Source: Erysipelotrichaceae bacterium (GTDB lineage Bacteria; Bacillota_I; Bacilli_A; RFN20; CAG-449). Taken from it: DNA of 32,208 nt. Below the pieces are notes generated by a model, which ran no database searches, was not told the DNA's origin, and saw only the letters and a list, made by a program, of their open reading frames with translations. This document shows positions 357 through 32,208 of this stretch, in pieces. Both the position numbers and the translations under genes were made by a program. Numbering within the stretch: the stretch's first letter is position 1; each line of letters starts with the position of its first letter. The DNA is taken from NCBI GenBank assembly GCA_022772105.1, contig JALFBO010000004.1:1-32208 (forward strand). The letters are read 5' to 3'.

Positions 357-1280
357 CTATTCATCAAGTTGCTTCTTTTTATCTTTCTTTTTGAATTTAA
401 AGATTTTTTTCTTTTCTTCTTTTTTATTACCAAGCAGTTCATCAATTTCGTTGATTTCTTGTCTTGTTATTTCCGAGGTTGGTTCGCCTAAAAATTCATC
501 TTGAGGTTGATCTAAATTTTGCTCATGAATCAAACGAATTAAATTATCTAATTCTTCATCGCTATATTCTGGCATAAAGGCTTGTTTTGAGTAAATATGA
601 TATGTTTCTTGTCCTACTTGCGATATTAGAAGAAGACATATATTCTTAGTGATTAATGATATGGCAGGATTATAAACTAATTTTTTAAACCAAGTTCCAG
701 GATTTAACGCATTAATAATGGTATGACCCACTTCTACAACTTTATTTAATTTATATTTTTTGGTGGTTTTTACAACAATATTATTTTCCACATTTTGTTT
801 TAGATTTAAAAGTTTAAGAATAGTGGAAAGTTTTAATTTTTTAAACATATTAATCTTAACTTTACTTAGAATGAGTTCTAATTTATCCATGATGTAACGA
901 TCTAAGAGAATGAGTTCTTCGATGGAGAGTTCAGCAAGAGGCTTTTTAGAGTCAGGATAAAAATGAGAAGCGATTTTATTCATCATCTGTATATTGACAT
1001 TTTTGATTGTTTCCCACGATATTCCGTTTTCCTCTTTGCGAAGTTCAATAAATCTATCTTGTGCTTCCTTTATATCTGATTCGACAATTTGTTTCATTTC
1101 TTCGGAAGATATTTTATTGATTTCTCTTCCGACAATAATTGCTTCGTCATCAATCTTTTTTAAGGTGGAAAGAACATAAACTAGCGTTAGAAGAACAACG
1201 CCACAGCATATACCAAAAAGAAAAGTAAAAATACTTGCCCAATTTATTACAAATTTGAATTCAACTACGTAATAGTTCAT
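357..1280 (-). CDS. Hypothetical membrane-anchored protein with an N-terminal TM helix and charged C-terminal tail
   Basis: 307-aa ORF; hydrophobic segment WASIFTFLFGICCGVVLLTLVYVL; AGGAAGGA RBS upstream on the minus strand. Confidence 0.75.
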   Translation of the reverse strand: MNYYVVEFKFVINWASIFTFLFGICCGVVLLTLVYVLSTLKKIDDEAIIVGREINKISSEEMKQIVESDIKEAQDRFIELRKEENGISWETIKNVNIQMMNKIASHFYPDSKKPLAELSIEELILLDRYIMDKLELILSKVKINMFKKLKLSTILKLLNLKQNVENNIVVKTTKKYKLNKVVEVGHTIINALNPGTWFKKLVYNPAISLITKNICLLLISQVGQETYHIYSKQAFMPEYSDEELDNLIRLIHEQNLDQPQDEFLGEPTSEITRQEINEIDELLGNKKEEKKKIFKFKKKDKKKQLDE

Positions 1281-1457
1281 ATTTTTATCCTTCCTAATAC
1301 GAGTATTATATCACTTTAACGCAATCTAATAAAGAATTTGCAAAATTATGCAATCTCTATTTATGAAAAAAAATTATATATTTATGAAAAAGATTAGTAT
1401 TTTAATAATAATAATGTTAATATTACATACGTAAAAATTGAAAGGAAGTAATCTATT

Positions 1458-3176
1458 ATGAAAGCAAGTAAAATGTTAATTGCTACAATGAAAGAAACTC
1501 CTACAGAGGCTCAAATATCGTCTCATATTCTTTTATTGCGTGCAGGCATGATTAGAAAATTAGTTGCAGGAGTATATAATTACTTACCGCTTGGACTTCG
1601 TGTATTAAATAAAGTGGAAAATATTATAAGAGAAGAAATGGATAAAGCAGGGGCTTTAGAAATTTTATCTTCAGCAATGCAACCAAAAGAATTATGGGTT
1701 GAATCTGGAAGATGGCAAAAATATGGTCCAGAATTAATGAGATTTAAAGATCGTAAAGATAATGAGTTTTGCTTAGGACCTACACATGAAGAAATTTTCA
1801 CAGACCTTGTAAGGAATGAAGTTAAATCAAAAAAGAATTTACCATTAAACATTTATCAAATTCAAACTAAGTATCGTGATGAGGTTCGTCCTCGCTTTGG
1901 CCTTATGAGAGGCAGAGAATTTATTATGAAAGATGCTTATTCATTTGATACTTCTGTAGAAGGATTAGATGCATCGTATAAGAATATGTATGATACCTAT
2001 TGTCGTATATTTGATAGATTGCATTTAAATTATAAAATAGTTCTTGCCGATACAGGAGCTATTGGAGGTACAGGTTCTCATCAATTTATGGCTATCTCTG
2101 ATGTTGGGGAATCTGATATTATTTATTGTTCATGCGGTTATGCTGCGGACCAAGAAAAAGCTTCATCTTTATGTGATACTTACAAGAACGATGAAGAAAT
2201 GAAGGAAAAAGAAGAAGTTCTAACTCCAAATCAAAAGAGTATTGAAGAAGTGTCTACCTTCCTAAATTGTTCACCAAAAGATGTATTAAAATCAATTGTA
2301 TATATTGATATGTCTCGCGAAGATAAAAATGTTCCTGTTATGGTTATTGTAAGAGGAGATAGAAGCATAAATGAAATTAAAGTAGTTAACGCATTAAATA
2401 TTGCTGAGCATGAACTTCGTTTAGCAACTGAAAAAGAAATATTAGAAATAGGTTCAGTTGAAGGATTTGTTGGTCCTATCGGCGTAAAAGATGTTGTTAT
2501 CCTTGTTGATGAAGAAGCTTCTAAGATGAAAAATGTTGTCGTAGGTGGTTCTAAGAAAGATACTCATATAAGAAATGTTAATTACGGAAGAGATTTTGAA
2601 GGACAAATTGGACAATTTAGAAATGCTGAAGAAGGTGATATTTGTCCTGTATGTGGTAAAAAATTATCTTTAGAGAGAGGAATTGAAGTAGGACAAATCT
2701 TTAAATTAGGTACTAAATATTCTGCACCTATGCACTGTGAATTCCAAGATGATGATGGAAAGGTAAAACCTATGGTGATGGGATGTTATGGAATTGGTGT
2801 TACAAGAACCATGTCATCAATTATTGAACAATATCATGACGAATATGGTATCAAATGGCCACTTAACGTTGCTCCTTATCATGCGGTGGTAGTTCCAGTA
2901 TCTTATCAAGATGAATGCCAAAAAGAAGCTGCAGAAAATATTTATAAACAATTAATGAACAATAAGGTTGAAGTTGTTCTTGATGATAGAAATGCAAAAC
3001 CAGGATTTAAATTCAAAGATTGGGAGTTAATTGGTATACCTTACATGATTATTGTTGGAAGAAGAGCAAACGAAGGCATTTGCGAACTTAAGAATCGTCA
3101 GACTTTACAAAAGCAAGAATTGACTTTTGAACAAGCGGTGAAAGTTATTGTAGATGAAGTTAAATCTCTTAGTTAA
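1458..3176 (+). CDS. proS: Proline--tRNA ligase, bacterial type with insertion (editing) domain
   Basis: Motifs LGPTHEE, QIQTKYRDEVRPRFGLMRGREFIMKDAYSF, GIEVGQIFKLG, MGCYGIGVTR; C-terminal anticodon-binding domain; AAAGGAAG RBS. Confidence 0.98.
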   Translation: MKASKMLIATMKETPTEAQISSHILLLRAGMIRKLVAGVYNYLPLGLRVLNKVENIIREEMDKAGALEILSSAMQPKELWVESGRWQKYGPELMRFKDRKDNEFCLGPTHEEIFTDLVRNEVKSKKNLPLNIYQIQTKYRDEVRPRFGLMRGREFIMKDAYSFDTSVEGLDASYKNMYDTYCRIFDRLHLNYKIVLADTGAIGGTGSHQFMAISDVGESDIIYCSCGYAADQEKASSLCDTYKNDEEMKEKEEVLTPNQKSIEEVSTFLNCSPKDVLKSIVYIDMSREDKNVPVMVIVRGDRSINEIKVVNALNIAEHELRLATEKEILEIGSVEGFVGPIGVKDVVILVDEEASKMKNVVVGGSKKDTHIRNVNYGRDFEGQIGQFRNAEEGDICPVCGKKLSLERGIEVGQIFKLGTKYSAPMHCEFQDDDGKVKPMVMGCYGIGVTRTMSSIIEQYHDEYGIKWPLNVAPYHAVVVPVSYQDECQKEAAENIYKQLMNNKVEVVLDDRNAKPGFKFKDWELIGIPYMIIVGRRANEGICELKNRQTLQKQELTFEQAVKVIVDEVKSLS

Positions 3177-27900: not shown

Positions 27901-28977
27901 ATGAAAAAGACTATAACATTATTACTTGCTTCCTTAGTAGCAACAACAGGCATTTTAGCAGGCTGTGGAAAGAAAAAAACCGATCCATCCACTTCAAGTT
28001 CAAATTCAACTACAAGTTTAACTTCAACTTCAACTAATGAAGTAACAAGTACAGTCACATCGCAAACAATAACATCAAATCCATCAACTACGATTCCACC
28101 TGAATCATTCGTAGAAGTTGGAGAATATACCATTACTTGGATTAATGGTATTGGATCATCTTATCAATTAGTAGATGGTGGGGTATTACCAGGAAAAGCA
28201 AATGGAAACGATAAAATTGAATTTAAATTAGCATTAGCTTATGGATTTGAAGTTGCTCCTAATGTAACAGCAAACGATGTAACATTAACTCCTGTAGATG
28301 GTGTTTACTCATTTGTTGTCACTGGAAATACAACAATCAAAGCAGCAGACTTAGATGTTAATTATGATGAAGTTATTGAATATTCTTCATATTATCTTCA
28401 ATTAGGTAGCCAAGAATTTGTAAATAAAGAAGAAAATAGATTTATTGTTGATAAATATCCAGTATATTCTAATGAACAATACTATTTTGAAGATATTGAT
28501 TTCAATATTGGTGATACATTCAAGGTTTATGATAGCGTAACATCAGCTGTATTAACAAACTATGAAAAAGTTGATGGAGTATTACCAACTGGCTCAGTAG
28601 CGGCTGATGGAACATTTACTTGTACTGAAAAAGGTACATATGCTATGTACATAAAAGTAACTGGTGGAGAAACTCTAGTATATGTAGAATGCTACAATGA
28701 ACGTGAAATTAAAATTACTGGAGTTGAAGCAGGCTATACATATTATGTTTGGTCATGGGGTGGCGAAAAAGCTAACACATGGTTACCAGGTGTATTAGAT
28801 GGAACAACATTTACATTTACTCTTCCAAAACGTGCTTCTGGCTTCTTAATTGCTCAATTTAATGATGGCTTAGCAATTGAAGATGCTTCTTGGGATGTTA
28901 AGATTAAACAATCAGAAGATATGGCTCCTGTTAAAGGTGTAAGCTCTTATCCAGTTGTTTGGAAAGTTGGAGCTTAA
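27901..28977 (+). CDS. Lipoprotein with Ser/Thr linker and putative starch-binding (SusE/F- or CBM26-like) modules
   Basis: Lipobox LAGC; S/T-rich linker; GDTFKV...GTYAMYIK; YYVWSWGG..W..W; 14 nt downstream of pulA with GGGAGG RBS. The binding function is inference. Confidence 0.7.
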   Translation: MKKTITLLLASLVATTGILAGCGKKKTDPSTSSSNSTTSLTSTSTNEVTSTVTSQTITSNPSTTIPPESFVEVGEYTITWINGIGSSYQLVDGGVLPGKANGNDKIEFKLALAYGFEVAPNVTANDVTLTPVDGVYSFVVTGNTTIKAADLDVNYDEVIEYSSYYLQLGSQEFVNKEENRFIVDKYPVYSNEQYYFEDIDFNIGDTFKVYDSVTSAVLTNYEKVDGVLPTGSVAADGTFTCTEKGTYAMYIKVTGGETLVYVECYNEREIKITGVEAGYTYYVWSWGGEKANTWLPGVLDGTTFTFTLPKRASGFLIAQFNDGLAIEDASWDVKIKQSEDMAPVKGVSSYPVVWKVGA

Positions 28978-28998
28978 TTAATTTCTTAAATTAATAGG

Positions 28999-29006
28999 TA
29001 TGTTTT
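28999..29006 (+). repeat. 8-bp target-site duplication, left
   Basis: TATGTTTT, repeated at 31746-31753 directly outside the other inverted repeat. Confidence 0.85.
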
Positions 29007-29080
29007 GGTTCTCTAAATAAAATTGGGGAAACTTTAGGAAAATGTCTCAAATTGATAAGGGACAGCCAAATAAAAATAAT

Positions 29081-29130
29081 CAAAAGAATGGGGGGAAGCT
29101 ACAATGGTAGCAACCCTCATTTTTCTTTTG
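29081..29130. terminator. Long hairpin near the cassette end, probable terminator
   Basis: CAAAAGAA-TGGGGGG-AA-GCTAC-AATG-GTAGC-AA-CCCTCA-TTT-TTCTTTTG. Confidence 0.65.
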
Positions 29131-29197
29131 TCTAAAAATAAATAATGCTCATGTATTATTTTAATATAAATTTGTTTTGTCATTCATACATACTAGA

Positions 29198-29226
29198 TTG
29201 ATAAAGCAAATTTAAAGGTGTAACAT
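29198..29226 (+). promoter_or_regulatory. Promoter candidate for LRR gene 1
   Basis: TTGATA-17 nt-TAACAT; equivalent TTGAAG-17-TAACAT at 30522-30550. Confidence 0.5.
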
Positions 29227-29291
29227 AATATTAGATAAAGAAATTGAGACATTTATCATATTTATTTTATTTATGAAAGGAATATAAGAAT

Positions 29292-30224
29292 ATGGGAAAT
29301 AAATTCTTAAGATTATTTTTAATAGTGATTTCATCTTTTGCTGCTTCTGTTGGACTGGCGTCATGTGGTAATACATATACTCCTAGTTATGATAATTTAT
29401 CTTTTACAGTCATTAGTGAAGAAGAAAAAATTTGTGAAGTAAACGGATATAAGAAGTATTATAACGATGAAAGAGATAATAATATTTACATTCCTAAAAT
29501 GTGGAATGACTACAAAGTAACATCAATTGGCGAATCTGCTTTCTTTGGTTGCGAATCTTTAAGTTCAATCATGATACCAAATAGTGTAACCTCAATTGGC
29601 GGCTCTGCTTTCAGGAAATGTACCTCTTTAAGTTCAATCTCAATTCCAAAAAGTGTAACCTCAATTGGATTCGGTGCTTTCCTTGATTGTACCTCCTTAA
29701 GTTCAATCGTGATACCAAATAGTGTAACCTCTCTTGGCGGTTATGTTTTCCATGACTGTGCCTCCTTAAGTTCAGTAAAAATAGGAAATGGTGTAACCTC
29801 AATTGGAGACGATACTTTTTATGGATGCAGCTCTTTAAGTTCAATCGTGATACCAGGTAGTGTAACCTCAATTGGCGAAAGTGCTTTCAATCTTTGTACC
29901 TCCTTAAGTTCAATCGTGATACCAGATAGTGTAATCTCAATAGACCGCGCTGCTTTCCAAAGATGTTCCTCTTTAAGTTCAGTAACAATAGGAAATGGTG
30001 TAACCTCTCTTGGCGAGCTTGCTTTCTCTTTTTGTCCATCCTTAAGTTCAATCGTGATACCAGATAGTGTAACCTCAATAGGCAGCTCTGTTTTCTATAG
30101 TAGTAAGTCCTTAAGTGATGTATACTATATTGGTTCAGAAGAACAATGGAATGCTATTAGTATTGATTCGACTAATGATGAATTAAATTCTGCTACTATC
30201 CACTATAACTATGTAGGTAAGTAA
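29292..30224 (+). CDS. BspA-type (LRR_5/TpLRR) leucine-rich repeat lipoprotein, 9 repeats
   Basis: Lipobox LASC; 23-aa repeats VTSIGxxAFxxCxSLSSIVIPDS; C-cap VYYIGSEEQW..I.....L.SATIHYN. Confidence 0.93.
   Translation: MGNKFLRLFLIVISSFAASVGLASCGNTYTPSYDNLSFTVISEEEKICEVNGYKKYYNDERDNNIYIPKMWNDYKVTSIGESAFFGCESLSSIMIPNSVTSIGGSAFRKCTSLSSISIPKSVTSIGFGAFLDCTSLSSIVIPNSVTSLGGYVFHDCASLSSVKIGNGVTSIGDDTFYGCSSLSSIVIPGSVTSIGESAFNLCTSLSSIVIPDSVISIDRAAFQRCSSLSSVTIGNGVTSLGELAFSFCPSLSSIVIPDSVTSIGSSVFYSSKSLSDVYYIGSEEQWNAISIDSTNDELNSATIHYNYVGK
29517..30116 (+). repeat. Nine tandem 69-bp coding repeats (last one partial)
   Basis: Units start at 29517, 29586, 29655, 29724, 29793, 29862, 29931, 30000 and 30069; framework GTAACCTCAATTGG...GCTTTC...TGT...TTAAGTTCAATCGTGATACCA. 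Confidence 0.95.
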
Positions 30225-30232
30225 CTAATCTT

Positions 30233-30289
30233 TTATAAAAAGATGTTATCATCTTCAATTCCAAGTAATTTTATTATAAAATTGTACAT
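30233..30289 (-). pseudogene. N-terminal remnant of a probable ISL3-family transposase
   Basis: AGAAAGGAG RBS then MYNFIIKLLGIEDDNIFL*, about 170 bp inside the IR at 30456; resembles the KLLxIxDxNI start of Firmicutes ISL3 transposases (recalled, not searched). Confidence 0.6.
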
Positions 30290-30615
30290 GTATATGACTC
30301 CTTTCTTTGCTTATTTTTAGACAACTTAATTATAAGAAAAGTCATATACTTTTTTAATGGAAAAAACAAAATAAAAACTTATCAAACAAGTGGGGGATTA
30401 TTTTGACCCCAAAAATTTGATAAGCGAAGCGTTCCCCAATTTCATTTAGAGAAACCTAAAAATAAATAATGTTCATGCATTATTTTAATATAAATTTATT
30501 TTGTCTTTCATACAAATTGGATTGAAGGAGCGAATATAAAGGTGTAACATAATATTAGTCAATGAAATTGAGACATTTATCATGCTTATTTTATTTATGA
30601 AAGGAATATAAGAAA

Positions 30616-31515
30616 ATGGTTAATAAATTATTAAGATTATTTTTAATAGTGATATCATCTTTTACTGCTTCTGTTGGAATGGCGTCATGTAGTGTAAATA
30701 ATATGTTTCATAGACATAAATATAATAAACAAGTAATAATAGATGAATATAAAGCAAGTGATGCAGATTGTGAACATGCTGGAACATATTATTACTCTTG
30801 TAGTTGTGGCAAACTTGGGACAGAAACATTTGAATATGGAGAACCATTAGGACATAATTGGTGTTATGAATATTTTCAAACATTAGAAGGAGAATTTTAT
30901 CAAATCGTAACTTGTTTTAGATGTGATGAAAAAGAAAAAAGAACCATTCAAAGTGTTAATAATTTATCATTTGCAGTCATTAGTGAAGAAGAAAAAACTT
31001 GTGAAGTAATCGGATATAGGAAGTATTATAACGATGAAAGAGATAATTATATTTGCATTCCTAAAATGTGGAATGACTACAAAGTAACCTCAATTGGCGA
31101 CTTTGCTTTCGAGTTGTGCTCCTCCTTAAGATCAATCGTGATACCAGATAGTGTAACCTCAATTGGAAAATGTGCTTTCGAGTGTTGCTCCTCCTTAAGA
31201 TCAATCGTGATACCAGATAGTGTAACCTCAATTGGCAACTCTGCTTTCTGGTGTTGTTCCTCCTTAAGTTCAATCGAGATACCAGATAGTGTAACTTCAA
31301 TTGGCAACTATGCTTTCTATTATTGTCGCTCCTTAAGATCAGTAACAATAGGAAATAGTGTAACCTCAATTGGCAGAGGTGCTTTCTATGAGTGTACCTC
31401 CTTAAGTGATGTGTACTATATTGGTTCAGAAGAACAATGGAATGATATCAGTATTGGTTCTAGTAATGATAGATTAAAATCTGCTACTATCCACTATAAC
31501 TATGTAGGTAAGTAA
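30616..31515 (+). CDS. BspA-type LRR lipoprotein, 5 repeats, with an extra Cys/His-rich N-terminal module
   Basis: Lipobox MASC; ADCEHAGTYYYSCSCG...PLGHNW...CFRC; same N-cap and C-cap as gene 1. Confidence 0.92.
   Translation: MVNKLLRLFLIVISSFTASVGMASCSVNNMFHRHKYNKQVIIDEYKASDADCEHAGTYYYSCSCGKLGTETFEYGEPLGHNWCYEYFQTLEGEFYQIVTCFRCDEKEKRTIQSVNNLSFAVISEEEKTCEVIGYRKYYNDERDNYICIPKMWNDYKVTSIGDFAFELCSSLRSIVIPDSVTSIGKCAFECCSSLRSIVIPDSVTSIGNSAFWCCSSLSSIEIPDSVTSIGNYAFYYCRSLRSVTIGNSVTSIGRGAFYECTSLSDVYYIGSEEQWNDISIGSSNDRLKSATIHYNYVGK
31084..31407 (+). repeat. Five tandem 69-bp coding repeats (last one partial)
   Basis: Units start at 31084, 31153, 31222, 31291 and 31360. Confidence 0.95.
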
Positions 31516-31580
31516 CTAATCTTTAATAAAAAGATGTTATTATCTTCAATTCCAAGTAATTGTATTATAATATTGTATAT
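31500..31580 (-). pseudogene. Second transposase N-terminal remnant with start codon changed to ATA
   Basis: Same RBS, then (I)YNIIIQLLGIEDNNIFLLKISYLPT*. Confidence 0.5.
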
Positions 31581-31745
31581 GTATATGACTCCTTTCTTTG
31601 CTTATTTTTAGACAACTTAATTATAAGAAAAGTCATATACTTTTTTAATGGAAAAAACAAAATTAAAAACTTATCAAACTAGGGGGATTATTTTGACCCC
31701 CAAAAATTTGATAAGTAAACGCTCCCTAATTTTATTTTAAGAACC

Positions 31746-31753
31746 TATGTTTT
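31746..31753 (+). repeat. 8-bp target-site duplication, right
   Basis: TATGTTTT directly after GAACC. Confidence 0.85.
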
Positions 31754-31818
31754 AAAAGGCGTGCCTATTTTTTTATTTTCGTTTTTGGTGTATTATAATA
31801 AAGAAAGGTGAAAAATAT

Positions 31819-32208
31819 ATGTTATATAAAATTTCTCAAGAAGTACAACAAGCATTAAAAGAAAATAAACCGGTAATTGCCCTAGAATCAACAATTATTT
31901 CTCATGGGATGCCTTATCCACAAAACGTGGAAACAGCATTAAAAGTGGAACAAATAATTAGAGATAATGGATGTATTCCTGCAACGATTGGAATTATTGA
32001 AGGAACTCCAATTATTGGAATGAGTAAAGATGAAATTGAATTATTTGGAAAAACTCCTGGTATTTTAAAAGCATCAAGAAGAGATCTCCCAGTTATTATG
32101 GCTAAAAAATTATGGGGAGCAACAACTGTGGCAACCACTATGATTCTTGCTTCTATCGCGGGAATAGAAGTCTTTGTTACAGGTGGAATTGGAGGAGTTC
32201 ATAAGGGA
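31819..32208 (+). CDS. psuG: Pseudouridine-5'-phosphate glycosidase (partial; runs off the window; not in the ORF track)
   Basis: Manual translation MLYKISQEVQQALKENKPVIALESTIISHGMPYPQN...SRRDLP...GATTVATTM...FVTGGIGGVHKG; AGAAAGGTG RBS. Confidence 0.95.
   Translation, partial: MLYKISQEVQQALKENKPVIALESTIISHGMPYPQNVETALKVEQIIRDNGCIPATIGIIEGTPIIGMSKDEIELFGKTPGILKASRRDLPVIMAKKLWGATTVATTMILASIAGIEVFVTGGIGGVHKG

What the first reader, a model, noticed from the sequence alone, without database searches (positions are those of the whole stretch)
29517..31407. LRR modules with constant DNA framework and hypervariable codons (antibody/VLR-like repertoire)
Seen: across 14 repeat units of 69 bp the framework codons are nearly invariant even at silent sites (GTA ACC TCA ATT GGC, GCT TTC, TTA AGT TCA). 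Five positions in GxxAFxxCx vary widely. The codon just before A-F ends in T in 14/14 units while using 9 different codons (TCT, GGT, TAT, GAT, AGT, GCT, CTT, TTT, TGT). The codon after the Cys position ends in C in 11/14. The two genes share N- and C-caps but have 9 versus 5 repeats, with no identical variable set. Established: variation at codon positions 1-2 with a fixed pyrimidine wobble is what DGR mutagenesis of AAY codons produces, and LRR module shuffling underlies lamprey VLRs. Inference: targeted diversification by repeat shuffling, gene conversion, strong diversifying selection or a remote DGR. No reverse transcriptase or template repeat is in this window.
Basis: partly seen in the sequence, partly recalled or inferred. 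Interest (0 to 1): 0.7.

Follow-up and report, generated by a model that had tools for sequence, protein, structure and literature searches.

The report
Hypervariable BspA-type LRR surface lipoproteins
Two neighbouring genes of a small gut bacterium encode surface-anchored leucine-rich-repeat proteins whose repeat units keep a near-constant DNA framework, while five exposed positions and the number and order of units change quickly between strains, a known way of evolving binding proteins and not a retroelement-driven one.

Summary
Fourteen 69-bp units in two tandem lipoprotein genes (29292-30224, 30616-31515) share a framework that is conserved even at silent sites. Codons 6, 7, 10, 11 and 13 of the unit are hypervariable. 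Codon 7 ends in T in 14/14 units and codon 13 in C in 11/14, far beyond codon usage. The proteins are BspA-type LRRs (Pfam LRR_5).

The DGR reading fails. The genome (91% complete) has no reverse transcriptase and no template copy. Framework adenines are as conserved as other bases. Three of the five variable codons also use purine wobbles.

A conspecific strain and other alleles show what does happen. Unit number changes (9 vs 11, 3 or 5; 5 vs about 14), units are deleted cleanly, the two paralogs form chimeras, and differences come in short clustered patches. Amino-acid changes concentrate at the five positions (omega about 7 within the genome, 2-3 between strains).

My reading is concerted evolution plus diversifying selection, as in the Flavobacterium psychrophilum LRR locus and fungal NLR repeats. 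It is a new member of a known kind.

One unexplained extra: in 91 LRR_5 arrays from other organisms, hypervariable codons are strongly NNT, against both framework and flanking-gene codon usage.

The parts
29130..29291 (+). Conserved upstream region of gene 1 (putative promoter and 5' leader), duplicated before gene 2
   Evidence: Aligns with 30455-30615 at about 84% over 192 nt, with a near-identical core. The promoter scan is uninformative in this AT-rich DNA.
29292..30224 (+). Gene 1: BspA-type LRR lipoprotein, 310 aa
   Evidence: ORF. Pfam LRR_5 E 3.8e-64. PDB 4fs7 E 2.6e-61. AF2 model pLDDT 88.7.
29292..29366 (+). Signal peptide ending in lipobox L-A-S-C (gene 1)
   Evidence: Read from the translation. 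The lipobox pattern is recalled; no predictor was run.
29394..29516 (+). N-terminal cap shared with gene 2
   Evidence: 94% identical to 30961-31083.
29517..30137 (+). Nine 69-bp LRR units of gene 1; the last merges into the C-cap
   Evidence: In-register table; nhmmer hits; TRF period 69.
30117..30224 (+). C-terminal cap of gene 1
   Evidence: 92% identical to 31408-31515.
30225..30450 (+). Conserved 3' flank containing a dispersed intergenic element with a GC-rich hairpin
   Evidence: 95% identical to 31516-31745. Further copies lie on C133 and C65. No Rfam match reaches a gathering score.
30455..30615 (+). Conserved upstream region of gene 2
30616..31515 (+). Gene 2: BspA-type LRR lipoprotein, 299 aa
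   Evidence: ORF. Pfam LRR_5 E 2e-37.
30691..30960 (+). Cys/His-rich insert between the lipobox and the N-cap, absent from gene 1
   Evidence: Translation. Also present in alleles P0097 and P0012, and replaced by another linker in P0043.
31084..31428 (+). Five 69-bp LRR units of gene 2
31516..31737 (+). Second copy of the conserved 3' flank element

Best explanation
The two genes are tandem paralogs of a strain-variable family of surface lipoproteins. Their binding domain is a BspA-type (TpLRR / Pfam LRR_5) solenoid of 23-residue coils.

The units are young copies of one another. Unit-level unequal recombination and short conversion-like exchanges, within a gene and between paralogs, keep them alike, so the framework stays the same even at silent sites.

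Five positions per coil (6, 7, 10, 11, 13 in G-x-x-A-F-x-x-C-x) lie on the loop side between the two short strands. Diversifying selection on the protein replaces them much faster than silent sites change. Because selection acts on the amino acid, codon positions 1-2 vary while a wobble base whose tolerated changes are all silent (T of codon 7) stays as inherited.

Shown here: family membership, unit indels and chimeras between strains, clustered differences, and dN above dS at the five codons. Inferred: surface exposure of the five positions as one stripe, the binding or adhesion function, and selection rather than a mutational mechanism as the driver.
For: Family: LRR_5 E 3.8e-64 and 2e-37. 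By sequence, PDB 4fs7, 4gt6, 6mlx (TpLRR) and 4cp6. The same entries top the fold search.

Young units: the framework uses rare codons consistently. Flanks of the two genes are 84-95% identical.

Excess amino-acid change within the genome: variable codons pN 0.634 against framework pS 0.245. Silent sites inside the cassette (codons 8, 9, 12) have pS 0.33, so cassettes are not older than the framework. Units g1_6 and g3_3 differ at 0/54 framework nt but 10/15 variable nt. A fixed-partition codon model gives omega 7.0 (variable) against 0.45 (framework), with 2dlnL 66 against omega=1.

Between strains: L037 is syntenic and 96.7% identical over 3828 nt. In 8 orthologous units, dN at variable codons is 0.151 against a baseline dS of 0.056 (Fisher p 0.005).

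Shuffling: unit counts are 9 vs 11 (L037), and 5 vs 13 regular units plus one long unit (L038). Allele P0106 has gene-1 units 1, 8 and 9 only, and P0010 has 5 units. P0097 lacks unit 2 of gene 2. P0012 joins the gene-2 N-terminus to gene-1 units 5-9, and P0079 is the converse type. Cassettes are shared across positions and paralogs.

Patchy exchange: 6 framework differences fall within 18 nt (28/20000 permutations reach this). Eight codons carry multi-nt changes against 2.48 expected (6/20000).

Family property: in 801 units of 119 homologs, entropy is 2.5-3.6 bits at the five positions and at most 1.9 bits elsewhere.

Structure: strands fall at unit positions 17-20 and 3-4, and the variable positions lie in the segment between them.
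Against: Against framework dS alone, the between-strain excess is not significant (dN 0.151 vs dS 0.082, p 0.17). The differences are clustered, so they are not independent events.

The variable/framework partition was chosen from the data, although it matches the family-wide profile. The codon model assumes one tree, while units recombine.

Some unit pairs have identical frameworks but near-saturated variable codons. In other organisms, arrays with framework four-fold diversity of 0.05 or less (7 of the 78 arrays with at least 6 units) still show diversity of 0.47-0.66 at positions 1-2 of the variable codons. Ordinary point mutation plus selection explains this only with very strong selection or frequent homogenisation.

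No ligand, expression or localisation data exist. The contig-level read data could not measure within-population polymorphism. Coordinates of the model were not available, so the 'one face' claim rests on solenoid geometry.
Confidence: 0.7

Rival explanations
1. Relaxed constraint only. The five x positions are simply unconstrained and drift neutrally, and the framework looks constant because the units duplicated recently. No positive selection is needed.
For: The same five positions are the free positions of the whole family. Against framework dS alone, the between-strain excess is not significant (p 0.17).
Against: Neutral sites cannot diverge faster than silent sites. Within the genome pN at variable codons is 0.634 against pS 0.245-0.35, and omega is 7.0. 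Unit pairs with 0-1 framework differences carry 5-10 differences in 15 variable nt. Other family-wide semi-free positions (3, 14, 16, 17) have not diverged in these arrays.
Confidence: 0.1
2. An unknown targeted diversification process, not a DGR, acts on the variable cassette. It could be programmed short-patch conversion from a cassette pool or a site-directed mutator. Selection would then only filter the products.
For: Frameworks can be identical while variable codons are near-saturated. Between strains, multi-nucleotide codon changes and clustered patches are in excess. The NNT wobble at hypervariable codons across 91 arrays of other organisms is not explained by codon usage.
Against: No candidate machinery or donor cassettes were seen in the window or the assembly. 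A position-blind mutator would also hit wobble bases, yet the wobble of codon 7 is invariant. Patches also cover framework codons, as ordinary conversion does. Known analogues (fungal NLR repeats, the F. psychrophilum LRR locus) are explained without such machinery.
Confidence: 0.08
3. Fast, reversible antigenic or phase variation: recombination between the expressed paralogs reshuffles units within a clonal population on short time scales, as in mycoplasma surface lipoprotein families.
For: The genes are tandem paralogs with conserved flanks. Chimeric and unit-deleted alleles exist in other samples. Metagenome contigs break up and join units in many ways across the arrays (contigs only).
Against: The time scale is unknown. 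Contigs cannot show within-clone switching, and paralogs can be mislaid on one another. No invertible promoter or homopolymer switch was seen in the conserved upstream regions.
Confidence: 0.08
4. A diversity-generating retroelement rewrites the variable codons from a template repeat with AAY codons.
For: Codon 7 is NNT in 19/19 units and codon 13 mostly NNC.
Against: No RVT_1 was found in the genome at E<=0.1 (91% complete). The two genus RTs examined are group II intron maturases (TIGR04416, 362 and 409 bits). One lies 0.9 kb from an LRR gene but has no TR-like repeat. Only the three gene loci match the unit profile. The 14 framework A sites are as conserved as the 40 non-A sites (0.897 in both). 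Codons 6, 10 and 11 carry purine wobbles. The fold is LRR, not C-type lectin or Ig.
Confidence: 0.01

Closest known systems
Flavobacterium psychrophilum tandem cell-surface LRR protein locus (Altae-Tran et al. 2020, PMC10392669; passages read)
   Same: Both have tandem genes for secreted, surface-anchored LRR proteins. Each protein has 2-14 internal units of about 22 residues with a few hypervariable positions. The number and length of proteins and the repeat sequences differ between strains while the flanks are conserved. Both show signs of recombination, and modelling places the hypervariable residues on one side.
   Different: That locus holds up to 19 genes plus many gene fragments, uses a type 9 secretion anchor, and sits in a Bacteroidota fish pathogen. 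Here there are two complete genes (plus a third elsewhere), lipoprotein anchoring, a small-genome gut member of Bacilli, and no fragment graveyard in the window.
Fungal NLR repeats with high internal conservation: Podospora het-d/het-e WD repeats (Paoletti et al. 2007, PMC1805685, abstract and outline read; Dyrka et al. 2014, PMC4986451, passages read)
   Same: Repeats are nearly identical at the DNA level. Concerted evolution exchanges units within and between paralogs. Repeat number is polymorphic. Positive diversifying selection acts on a handful of positions per repeat at the interaction surface.
   Different: Those are WD/ANK/TPR repeats in intracellular eukaryotic receptors, with RIP proposed as an added mutation source. 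Here the repeats are a bacterial extracellular LRR.
BspA / TpLRR family proteins (Tannerella forsythia BspA, T. pallidum TpLRR 6mlx, pneumococcal PcpA 4cp6; expanded families in Trichomonas and Ca. Mycoplasma girerdii, PMC4206474 passages read)
   Same: They share the repeat class and fold. They are surface-located and form expanded, length-variable families in host-associated microbes.
   Different: Their binding partners (TLR2, gp340 and others) are known only for a few members. Nothing is known for this subfamily.
Lamprey variable lymphocyte receptors
   Same: LRR modules with a constant framework and variable residues, and modular differences in unit number.
   Different: VLRs are assembled somatically from silent cassettes into an incomplete gene, and vary on the concave sheet (recalled). 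Here both genes are complete germline genes, no cassette arrays were found, and the variable residues lie outside the main strand at unit positions 17-20.
Diversity-generating retroelements
   Same: A fixed pyrimidine wobble with variable codon positions 1-2, seen here at one codon.
   Different: No RT, no template repeat, no adenine specificity, and a different fold.

Membership tests
BspA-type LRR (Pfam LRR_5, TpLRR class) | Match to the family profile above its curated cut-off | tested here: met
   PF13306 at 214.7 and 128.4 bits against a cut-off of 27.7.
BspA-type LRR (Pfam LRR_5, TpLRR class) | 23-residue unit with the L-x-x-L-x-L-P-x-x-L-x-x-I-x-x-x-A-F-x-x-C-x-x pattern (consensus recalled) | tested here: met
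   All 14 units have period 69 bp and read S-L-S-S-I-V-I-P-D-S-V-T-S-I-G-x-x-A-F-x-x-C-x.
BspA-type LRR (Pfam LRR_5, TpLRR class) | Fold like solved members | tested here: met
   By sequence: 4fs7 E 2.6e-61 and 6mlx E 8e-30. By model (pLDDT 88.7): the top Foldseek hits are 4gt6, 4fs7, 6mlx and 4cp6.
Bacterial lipoprotein | Signal peptide ending in a lipobox with Cys | tested here: inconclusive
   Both proteins begin with a hydrophobic leader ending L-A-S-C or M-A-S-C. No signal-peptide predictor was available.
Diversity-generating retroelement target | DGR-type reverse transcriptase in the genome | tested here: not met
   0 RVT_1 matches in G000, which is 91% complete. The two RTs examined in the genus are group II intron maturases.
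Diversity-generating retroelement target | Template repeat nearly identical to the variable region | tested here: not met
   The unit profile hits only the three gene loci (20 hits: 14 in the window, 6 on C65).
Diversity-generating retroelement target | Variation confined to template adenines | tested here: not met
   Framework A sites (14) and non-A sites (40) are equally conserved at 0.897. Variable codons change at all three positions in 4 of 5 codons.
VLR-like somatic assembly | Incomplete expressed gene flanked by silent LRR cassettes | tested here: not met
   Both genes are complete ORFs with their own conserved upstream regions. No further unit arrays exist in the assembly, though the assembly is fragmented into 196 contigs.
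Repeats with high internal conservation under concerted evolution and diversifying selection | Units alike at silent sites within and between paralogs | tested here: met
   Framework pS is 0.245, and several unit pairs differ at 0-2 of 54 framework nt across genes.
Repeats with high internal conservation under concerted evolution and diversifying selection | Repeat-number polymorphism and exchange between paralogs | tested here: met
   Unit counts of 9, 11, 5 or 3 for gene 1, and 5, 4 or about 14 for gene 2. Chimeras P0012 and P0079.
Repeats with high internal conservation under concerted evolution and diversifying selection | dN above dS at a few positions per repeat | tested here: met
   Omega 7.0 with 2dlnL 66. 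Between strains dN is 0.151 against dS 0.056. Caveats: the partition was chosen from the data, and units recombine.
Repeats with high internal conservation under concerted evolution and diversifying selection | Selected positions form the interaction surface | not testable with these tools
   Only the secondary structure of the model is returned. The variable positions lie between the strands at unit positions 3-4 and 17-20. That they form one stripe is inferred from solenoid geometry.

The most novel reading that the evidence does not exclude
The fixed wobble is not a local accident. Across BspA-type LRR arrays of many gut organisms, the four most variable codons are kept as NNT (and codon 13 as NNC), against the codon usage of the framework and of neighbouring genes. 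That would mean either selection for a stop-free, Tyr/Ser/Asn/Asp/Gly-rich 'library-like' codon neighbourhood (evolvability), or an undescribed diversification process acting on codon positions 1-2 of a short cassette in these surface proteins.
Probability: 0.12. Interest if true: 0.8.

Novelty: new member of a known kind. Interest (0 to 1): 0.42.

Why it matters
BspA-type LRR proteins are among the most expanded surface protein families of gut anaerobes, and almost none has a known ligand. This locus gives a clean, small example: two genes, three to fourteen units, and conserved flanks. The positions that carry specificity and the modes of change (unit indels, paralog chimeras, short patches, amino-acid replacement) can be read directly from strain comparisons. 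That points to where to mutate or swap when looking for ligands.

It also extends to bacterial LRR lipoproteins the 'highly conserved repeats plus few selected positions' mode described for fungal NLRs and for one Flavobacterium locus. The family-wide NNT wobble, if confirmed with proper gene calls, would be an unusually strong case of site-specific codon usage that needs explaining.

Tried and rejected
DGR: rejected. An RT 0.9 kb upstream of a 1613-aa LRR gene in a genus relative (L175) looked promising. It is a group II intron maturase beside an IS110 transposase, and no repeat links it to the LRR gene.

Codon bias as the cause of silent conservation: rejected.

'Old cassettes inside a homogenised framework': rejected. 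Silent sites inside the cassette (codons 8, 9, 12 and the wobble of 7) are no more diverged than those outside.

Public reads: 18 runs of 9 studies hold the stretch, all kept as contigs. In the four laid (X1, X3, X5, X6), the flanking gene is covered by long contigs with few differences. The arrays appear only as short pieces (about 150-480 nt) with many joints between units, and paralogs can be laid on one another. No measure of within-population polymorphism could be taken.

Rfam: nothing reached a gathering score in 28900-31900. The promoter and terminator scan was uninformative in AT-rich DNA.

Earlier notes of this scan: none for this genome.

Mutational-equilibrium explanation of the NNT wobble: does not fit as it stands. 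Four-fold codons at variable positions are T-rich but not A-rich (GGT 0.69 vs GGA 0.08). A non-equilibrium walk among NNY-coded residues could fit, but was not simulated.

A first optimisation of the codon model had not converged. One search replaces it.

Literature searches found no paper describing DGR targeting of LRR proteins or a wobble rule at hypervariable LRR codons. These searches cover only the held open-access library.
Full report
WHAT IS THERE. The window is a whole 32.2-kb contig of a 1.44-Mb, 30% GC, 91%-complete genome in 196 contigs. The closest database proteins are named only 'MAG: Bacilli bacterium'. Public runs holding the stretch are from pig gut, feces and wastewater.

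After a pullulanase-like lipoprotein and a 358-aa lipoprotein come two tandem genes on the + strand, 29292-30224 (310 aa) and 30616-31515 (299 aa). Both start with a hydrophobic leader ending in a lipobox-like L/M-A-S-C. Both share an N-cap (94% identical), a C-cap (92%), an upstream region (about 84%, with a higher core) and a 3' flank (95%). Gene 2 carries an extra Cys/His-rich insert after the lipobox.

Both are BspA-type LRR proteins: Pfam LRR_5 E 3.8e-64 and 2e-37. Sequence matches to solved structures include 4fs7 (2.6e-61), 4gt6, 4h09, 6mlx (TpLRR) and 4cp6 (PcpA). An AlphaFold model (pLDDT 88.7, pTM 0.82) has these same entries as its best fold matches. A third copy, cut by a contig end, lies on C65, and two distant LRR_5 genes lie on C5 and C31.

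THE OBSERVATION. Codon 7 ends in T in 14/14 units with 9 different codons, and codon 13 ends in C in 11/14. With the C65 copy the counts are 19/19 and 14/19.

Given the amino acids and the genome's codon usage (690 long ORFs), all-T has probability 2.5e-4 for 14 units and 2.5e-5 for 19. Eleven C were seen where 1.25 are expected.

The framework uses codons that are rare in this genome (ACC, GGC, TCC, GTG, ATC, TTC) in nearly every unit. Its silent conservation is therefore identity by descent.

One correction: only codon 7 has a fixed wobble. Codons 6, 10, 11 and 13 vary at the third base (diversity 0.46-0.63), with purines present.

NOT A DGR. The genome has no RVT_1 match at E<=0.1. The unit profile finds only the three gene loci, so there is no template copy. 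The 14 framework sites whose consensus is A are exactly as conserved as the 40 others (0.897), so there is no adenine-specific mutagenesis. Three of the five variable codons use purine wobbles.

Six of 15 genus genomes (G000 counted among the 15) have RVT_1. The two short RT ORFs I examined are group II intron maturases (TIGR04416, 362 and 409 bits). One of them lies 0.9 kb upstream of a large LRR gene, but it sits next to an IS110 transposase and no repeat links it to the LRR gene.

WHAT ACTUALLY VARIES. A metagenome scan returned two contigs of a conspecific strain. L037 is syntenic and 96.7% identical over 3828 nt that include the upstream genes. L038 carries the gene-2 ortholog followed by the same downstream gene. 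There, gene 1 has 11 units instead of 9, and gene 2 has 13 regular units plus one long unit instead of 5.

In the eight orthologous units of gene 1 there are 33 differences in 552 nt: 16 in the 120 nt of variable codons and 17 in the 432 framework nt. Nei-Gojobori dN at variable codons is 0.151. Against a baseline dS of 0.056 (flanking genes plus framework) the Fisher p is 0.005. Against framework dS alone (0.082) the p is 0.17.

The differences are clustered. Six framework differences fall within 18 nt (reached in 28 of 20000 permutations). Eight codons carry multi-nucleotide changes where 2.48 are expected (6 of 20000). This pattern fits short replaced patches rather than independent point mutations.

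Cassettes recur at other positions and in the other paralog. Alleles in the protein collection show clean unit deletions: P0106 has gene-1 units 1, 8 and 9 only, P0010 has 5 units, and P0097 is gene 2 without unit 2. They also show chimeras: P0012 joins the gene-2 N-terminus to gene-1 units 5-9, and P0079 is the converse type.

SELECTION OR MUTATION. Within the genome, variable codons have pN 0.634 against framework pS 0.245. Silent sites inside the cassette (codons 8, 9, 12) have pS 0.33, and the variable codons' own pS is 0.35. The cassettes are therefore not older than the framework. Only their amino-acid-changing sites have run ahead.

Units g1_6 and g3_3 differ at 0 of 54 framework nt but at 10 of 15 variable nt. 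A fixed-partition codon model on the 16 non-cap units gives omega 7.0 at the five codons and 0.45 elsewhere, with 2dlnL 66 against omega=1 (which replaces the unconverged). The caveats are a partition chosen from the data and a single tree despite recombination.

The invariant wobble of codon 7 fits selection on the protein. Position 7 carries S, G, Y, D, A, L, F, C, N and H, all of which NNT can encode. Every third-base change there is either silent or gives a residue class not seen at that position, so it changes only at the slow silent rate. A position-blind mutator would have hit it. This last step is inference.

STRUCTURE. The model puts the main strand at unit positions 17-20 and a two-residue strand at positions 3-4. 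Positions 6, 7, 10, 11 and 13 lie in the segment between them, and A8, F9 and C12 are the conserved core residues.

By solenoid geometry the five positions of successive coils should form one longitudinal stripe off the main sheet. I could not verify this because no coordinates are returned. [quoted passage not shown]

HOW ORDINARY IT IS. LRR_5 proteins are found in 39 of 41 genomes searched in this order, G000 included, and 7583 database proteins match at E<=1e-20. In 801 units from 119 homologs, the same five positions carry 2.5-3.6 bits of entropy and all others at most 1.9.

In 78 arrays of other organisms with at least 6 units, framework four-fold diversity is below 0.3 in 48. Diversity at positions 1-2 of the variable codons is about 0.54 whatever the framework value. 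So a constant DNA framework with saturated variable codons is the usual state of this family.

The closest described cases are two. One is the Flavobacterium psychrophilum tandem LRR locus (PMC10392669, passages). The other is the highly conserved repeats of fungal NLRs, with concerted evolution, repeat-number polymorphism and positive selection on four positions per repeat (PMC1805685 abstract and outline; PMC4986451 passages). I therefore file this as a new member of a known kind.

UNEXPLAINED REMAINDER. I examined 1060 ungapped units from 110 loci of other organisms. These include Clostridia, Bacteroidales, Treponema and a methanogen, and the units are 44.5% GC. The third base of codons 6, 7, 10 and 11 is T in 0.68, 0.75, 0.57 and 0.67 of units, and codon 13 is C in 0.50.

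For the same amino acid, the T-ending codon is far commoner at variable than at framework positions. GAT is 0.81 vs 0.50, AAT 0.80 vs 0.47, GGT 0.68 vs 0.29, GCT 0.59 vs 0.17, TTT 0.78 vs 0.33 and TGT 0.75 vs 0.24. Ser at position 7 is TCT (0.66), whereas framework Ser is AGC/AGT.

Per locus with at least 4 units, two-fold T/(T+C) is higher at variable than at framework codons in 87 of 91 loci, and higher than in flanking ORFs in 74 of 88. Four-fold T exceeds the flanks in 81 of 88. The means are 0.81 (variable), 0.37 (framework) and 0.55 (flanks). A few arrays are C-type instead (for example L100: T 0.08, pyrimidine 1.00).

The caveats are these. The loci were picked by similarity to this window's proteins. 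Related species are not independent. The flank codon usage comes from crude ORFs.

A plain mutational equilibrium does not fit, because four-fold codons are T-rich but not A-rich. A fast walk among NNY-coded residues (Y, S, N, D, G), with the wobble homogenised within arrays and C-to-T mutation pressure, might fit. I did not simulate it.

READS. Four runs from four studies, kept as contigs only, cover the flanking gene with long contigs and few differences. They break the arrays into short pieces with many unit-to-unit joints. Paralogs can be mislaid on one another, so within-population polymorphism was not measured.

VERDICT. DGR and VLR-like assembly are rejected. Repeat shuffling, short exchanges and diversifying selection on five positions of a BspA-type LRR surface lipoprotein family are supported (confidence 0.7). 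Interest is moderate, raised somewhat by the family-wide wobble rule.

Noticed in passing
L008-L168 (loci of other organisms); window units 29517-30137 and 31084-31428 as the local case: Family-wide codon anomaly. In 1060 LRR_5 units from 110 loci, the hypervariable codons 6, 7, 10 and 11 end in T (0.57-0.75), and codon 13 ends in C (0.50). This runs against the codon usage of framework codons (87 of 91 loci) and of flanking ORFs (74 of 88). Ser is TCT at position 7 but AGC/AGT in the framework. It is not explained by codon bias or by a plain mutational equilibrium.
   Followed up: partly
window 30225-30450 and 31516-31737; also G000 C133:11278-11432 and C65:1997-2077: A dispersed intergenic element of about 160-225 nt, with an inverted repeat around a G5...C5 hairpin, follows both LRR genes. 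It also follows an unrelated rubrerythrin-like gene on another contig. A related stretch lies upstream of gene 1 (about 29010-29110). No Rfam family matches.
   Followed up: partly
window 30691-30960 (gene 2 residues 26-115): A Cys/His-rich module sits between the lipobox and the N-cap of gene 2. It is absent from gene 1, kept in alleles P0097 and P0012, and replaced by a Ser/Thr-rich linker in P0043. Modular N-terminal swapping appears to occur as well.
   Followed up: no
L038:520-684: The conspecific strain's gene 2 holds one 'long' unit with an insert of about 32 residues after the cassette. The same long unit occurs in P0043, and its cassette equals that of window unit 2 of gene 2.
   Followed up: no
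window 30069-30137 (last unit of gene 1): This unit has Ser (AGT) where every other unit has the conserved Cys. Contigs of all four laid runs read T at 30102, which gives TGT, but they may derive from a paralog.
   Followed up: no
window 27991-28035: A 6/18-nt tandem repeat encodes a Ser/Thr-rich linker in the neighbouring 358-aa lipoprotein, which has no Pfam family. Together with the pullulanase-like lipoprotein upstream, the region is a run of surface proteins.
   Followed up: no
L175 (G002:C29) 465-3035: In a genus relative, an IS110 transposase and a group II intron maturase lie directly upstream of a 1613-aa LRR_5 protein. This looks like a chance neighbourhood rather than a retroelement-target pair.
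   Followed up: yes
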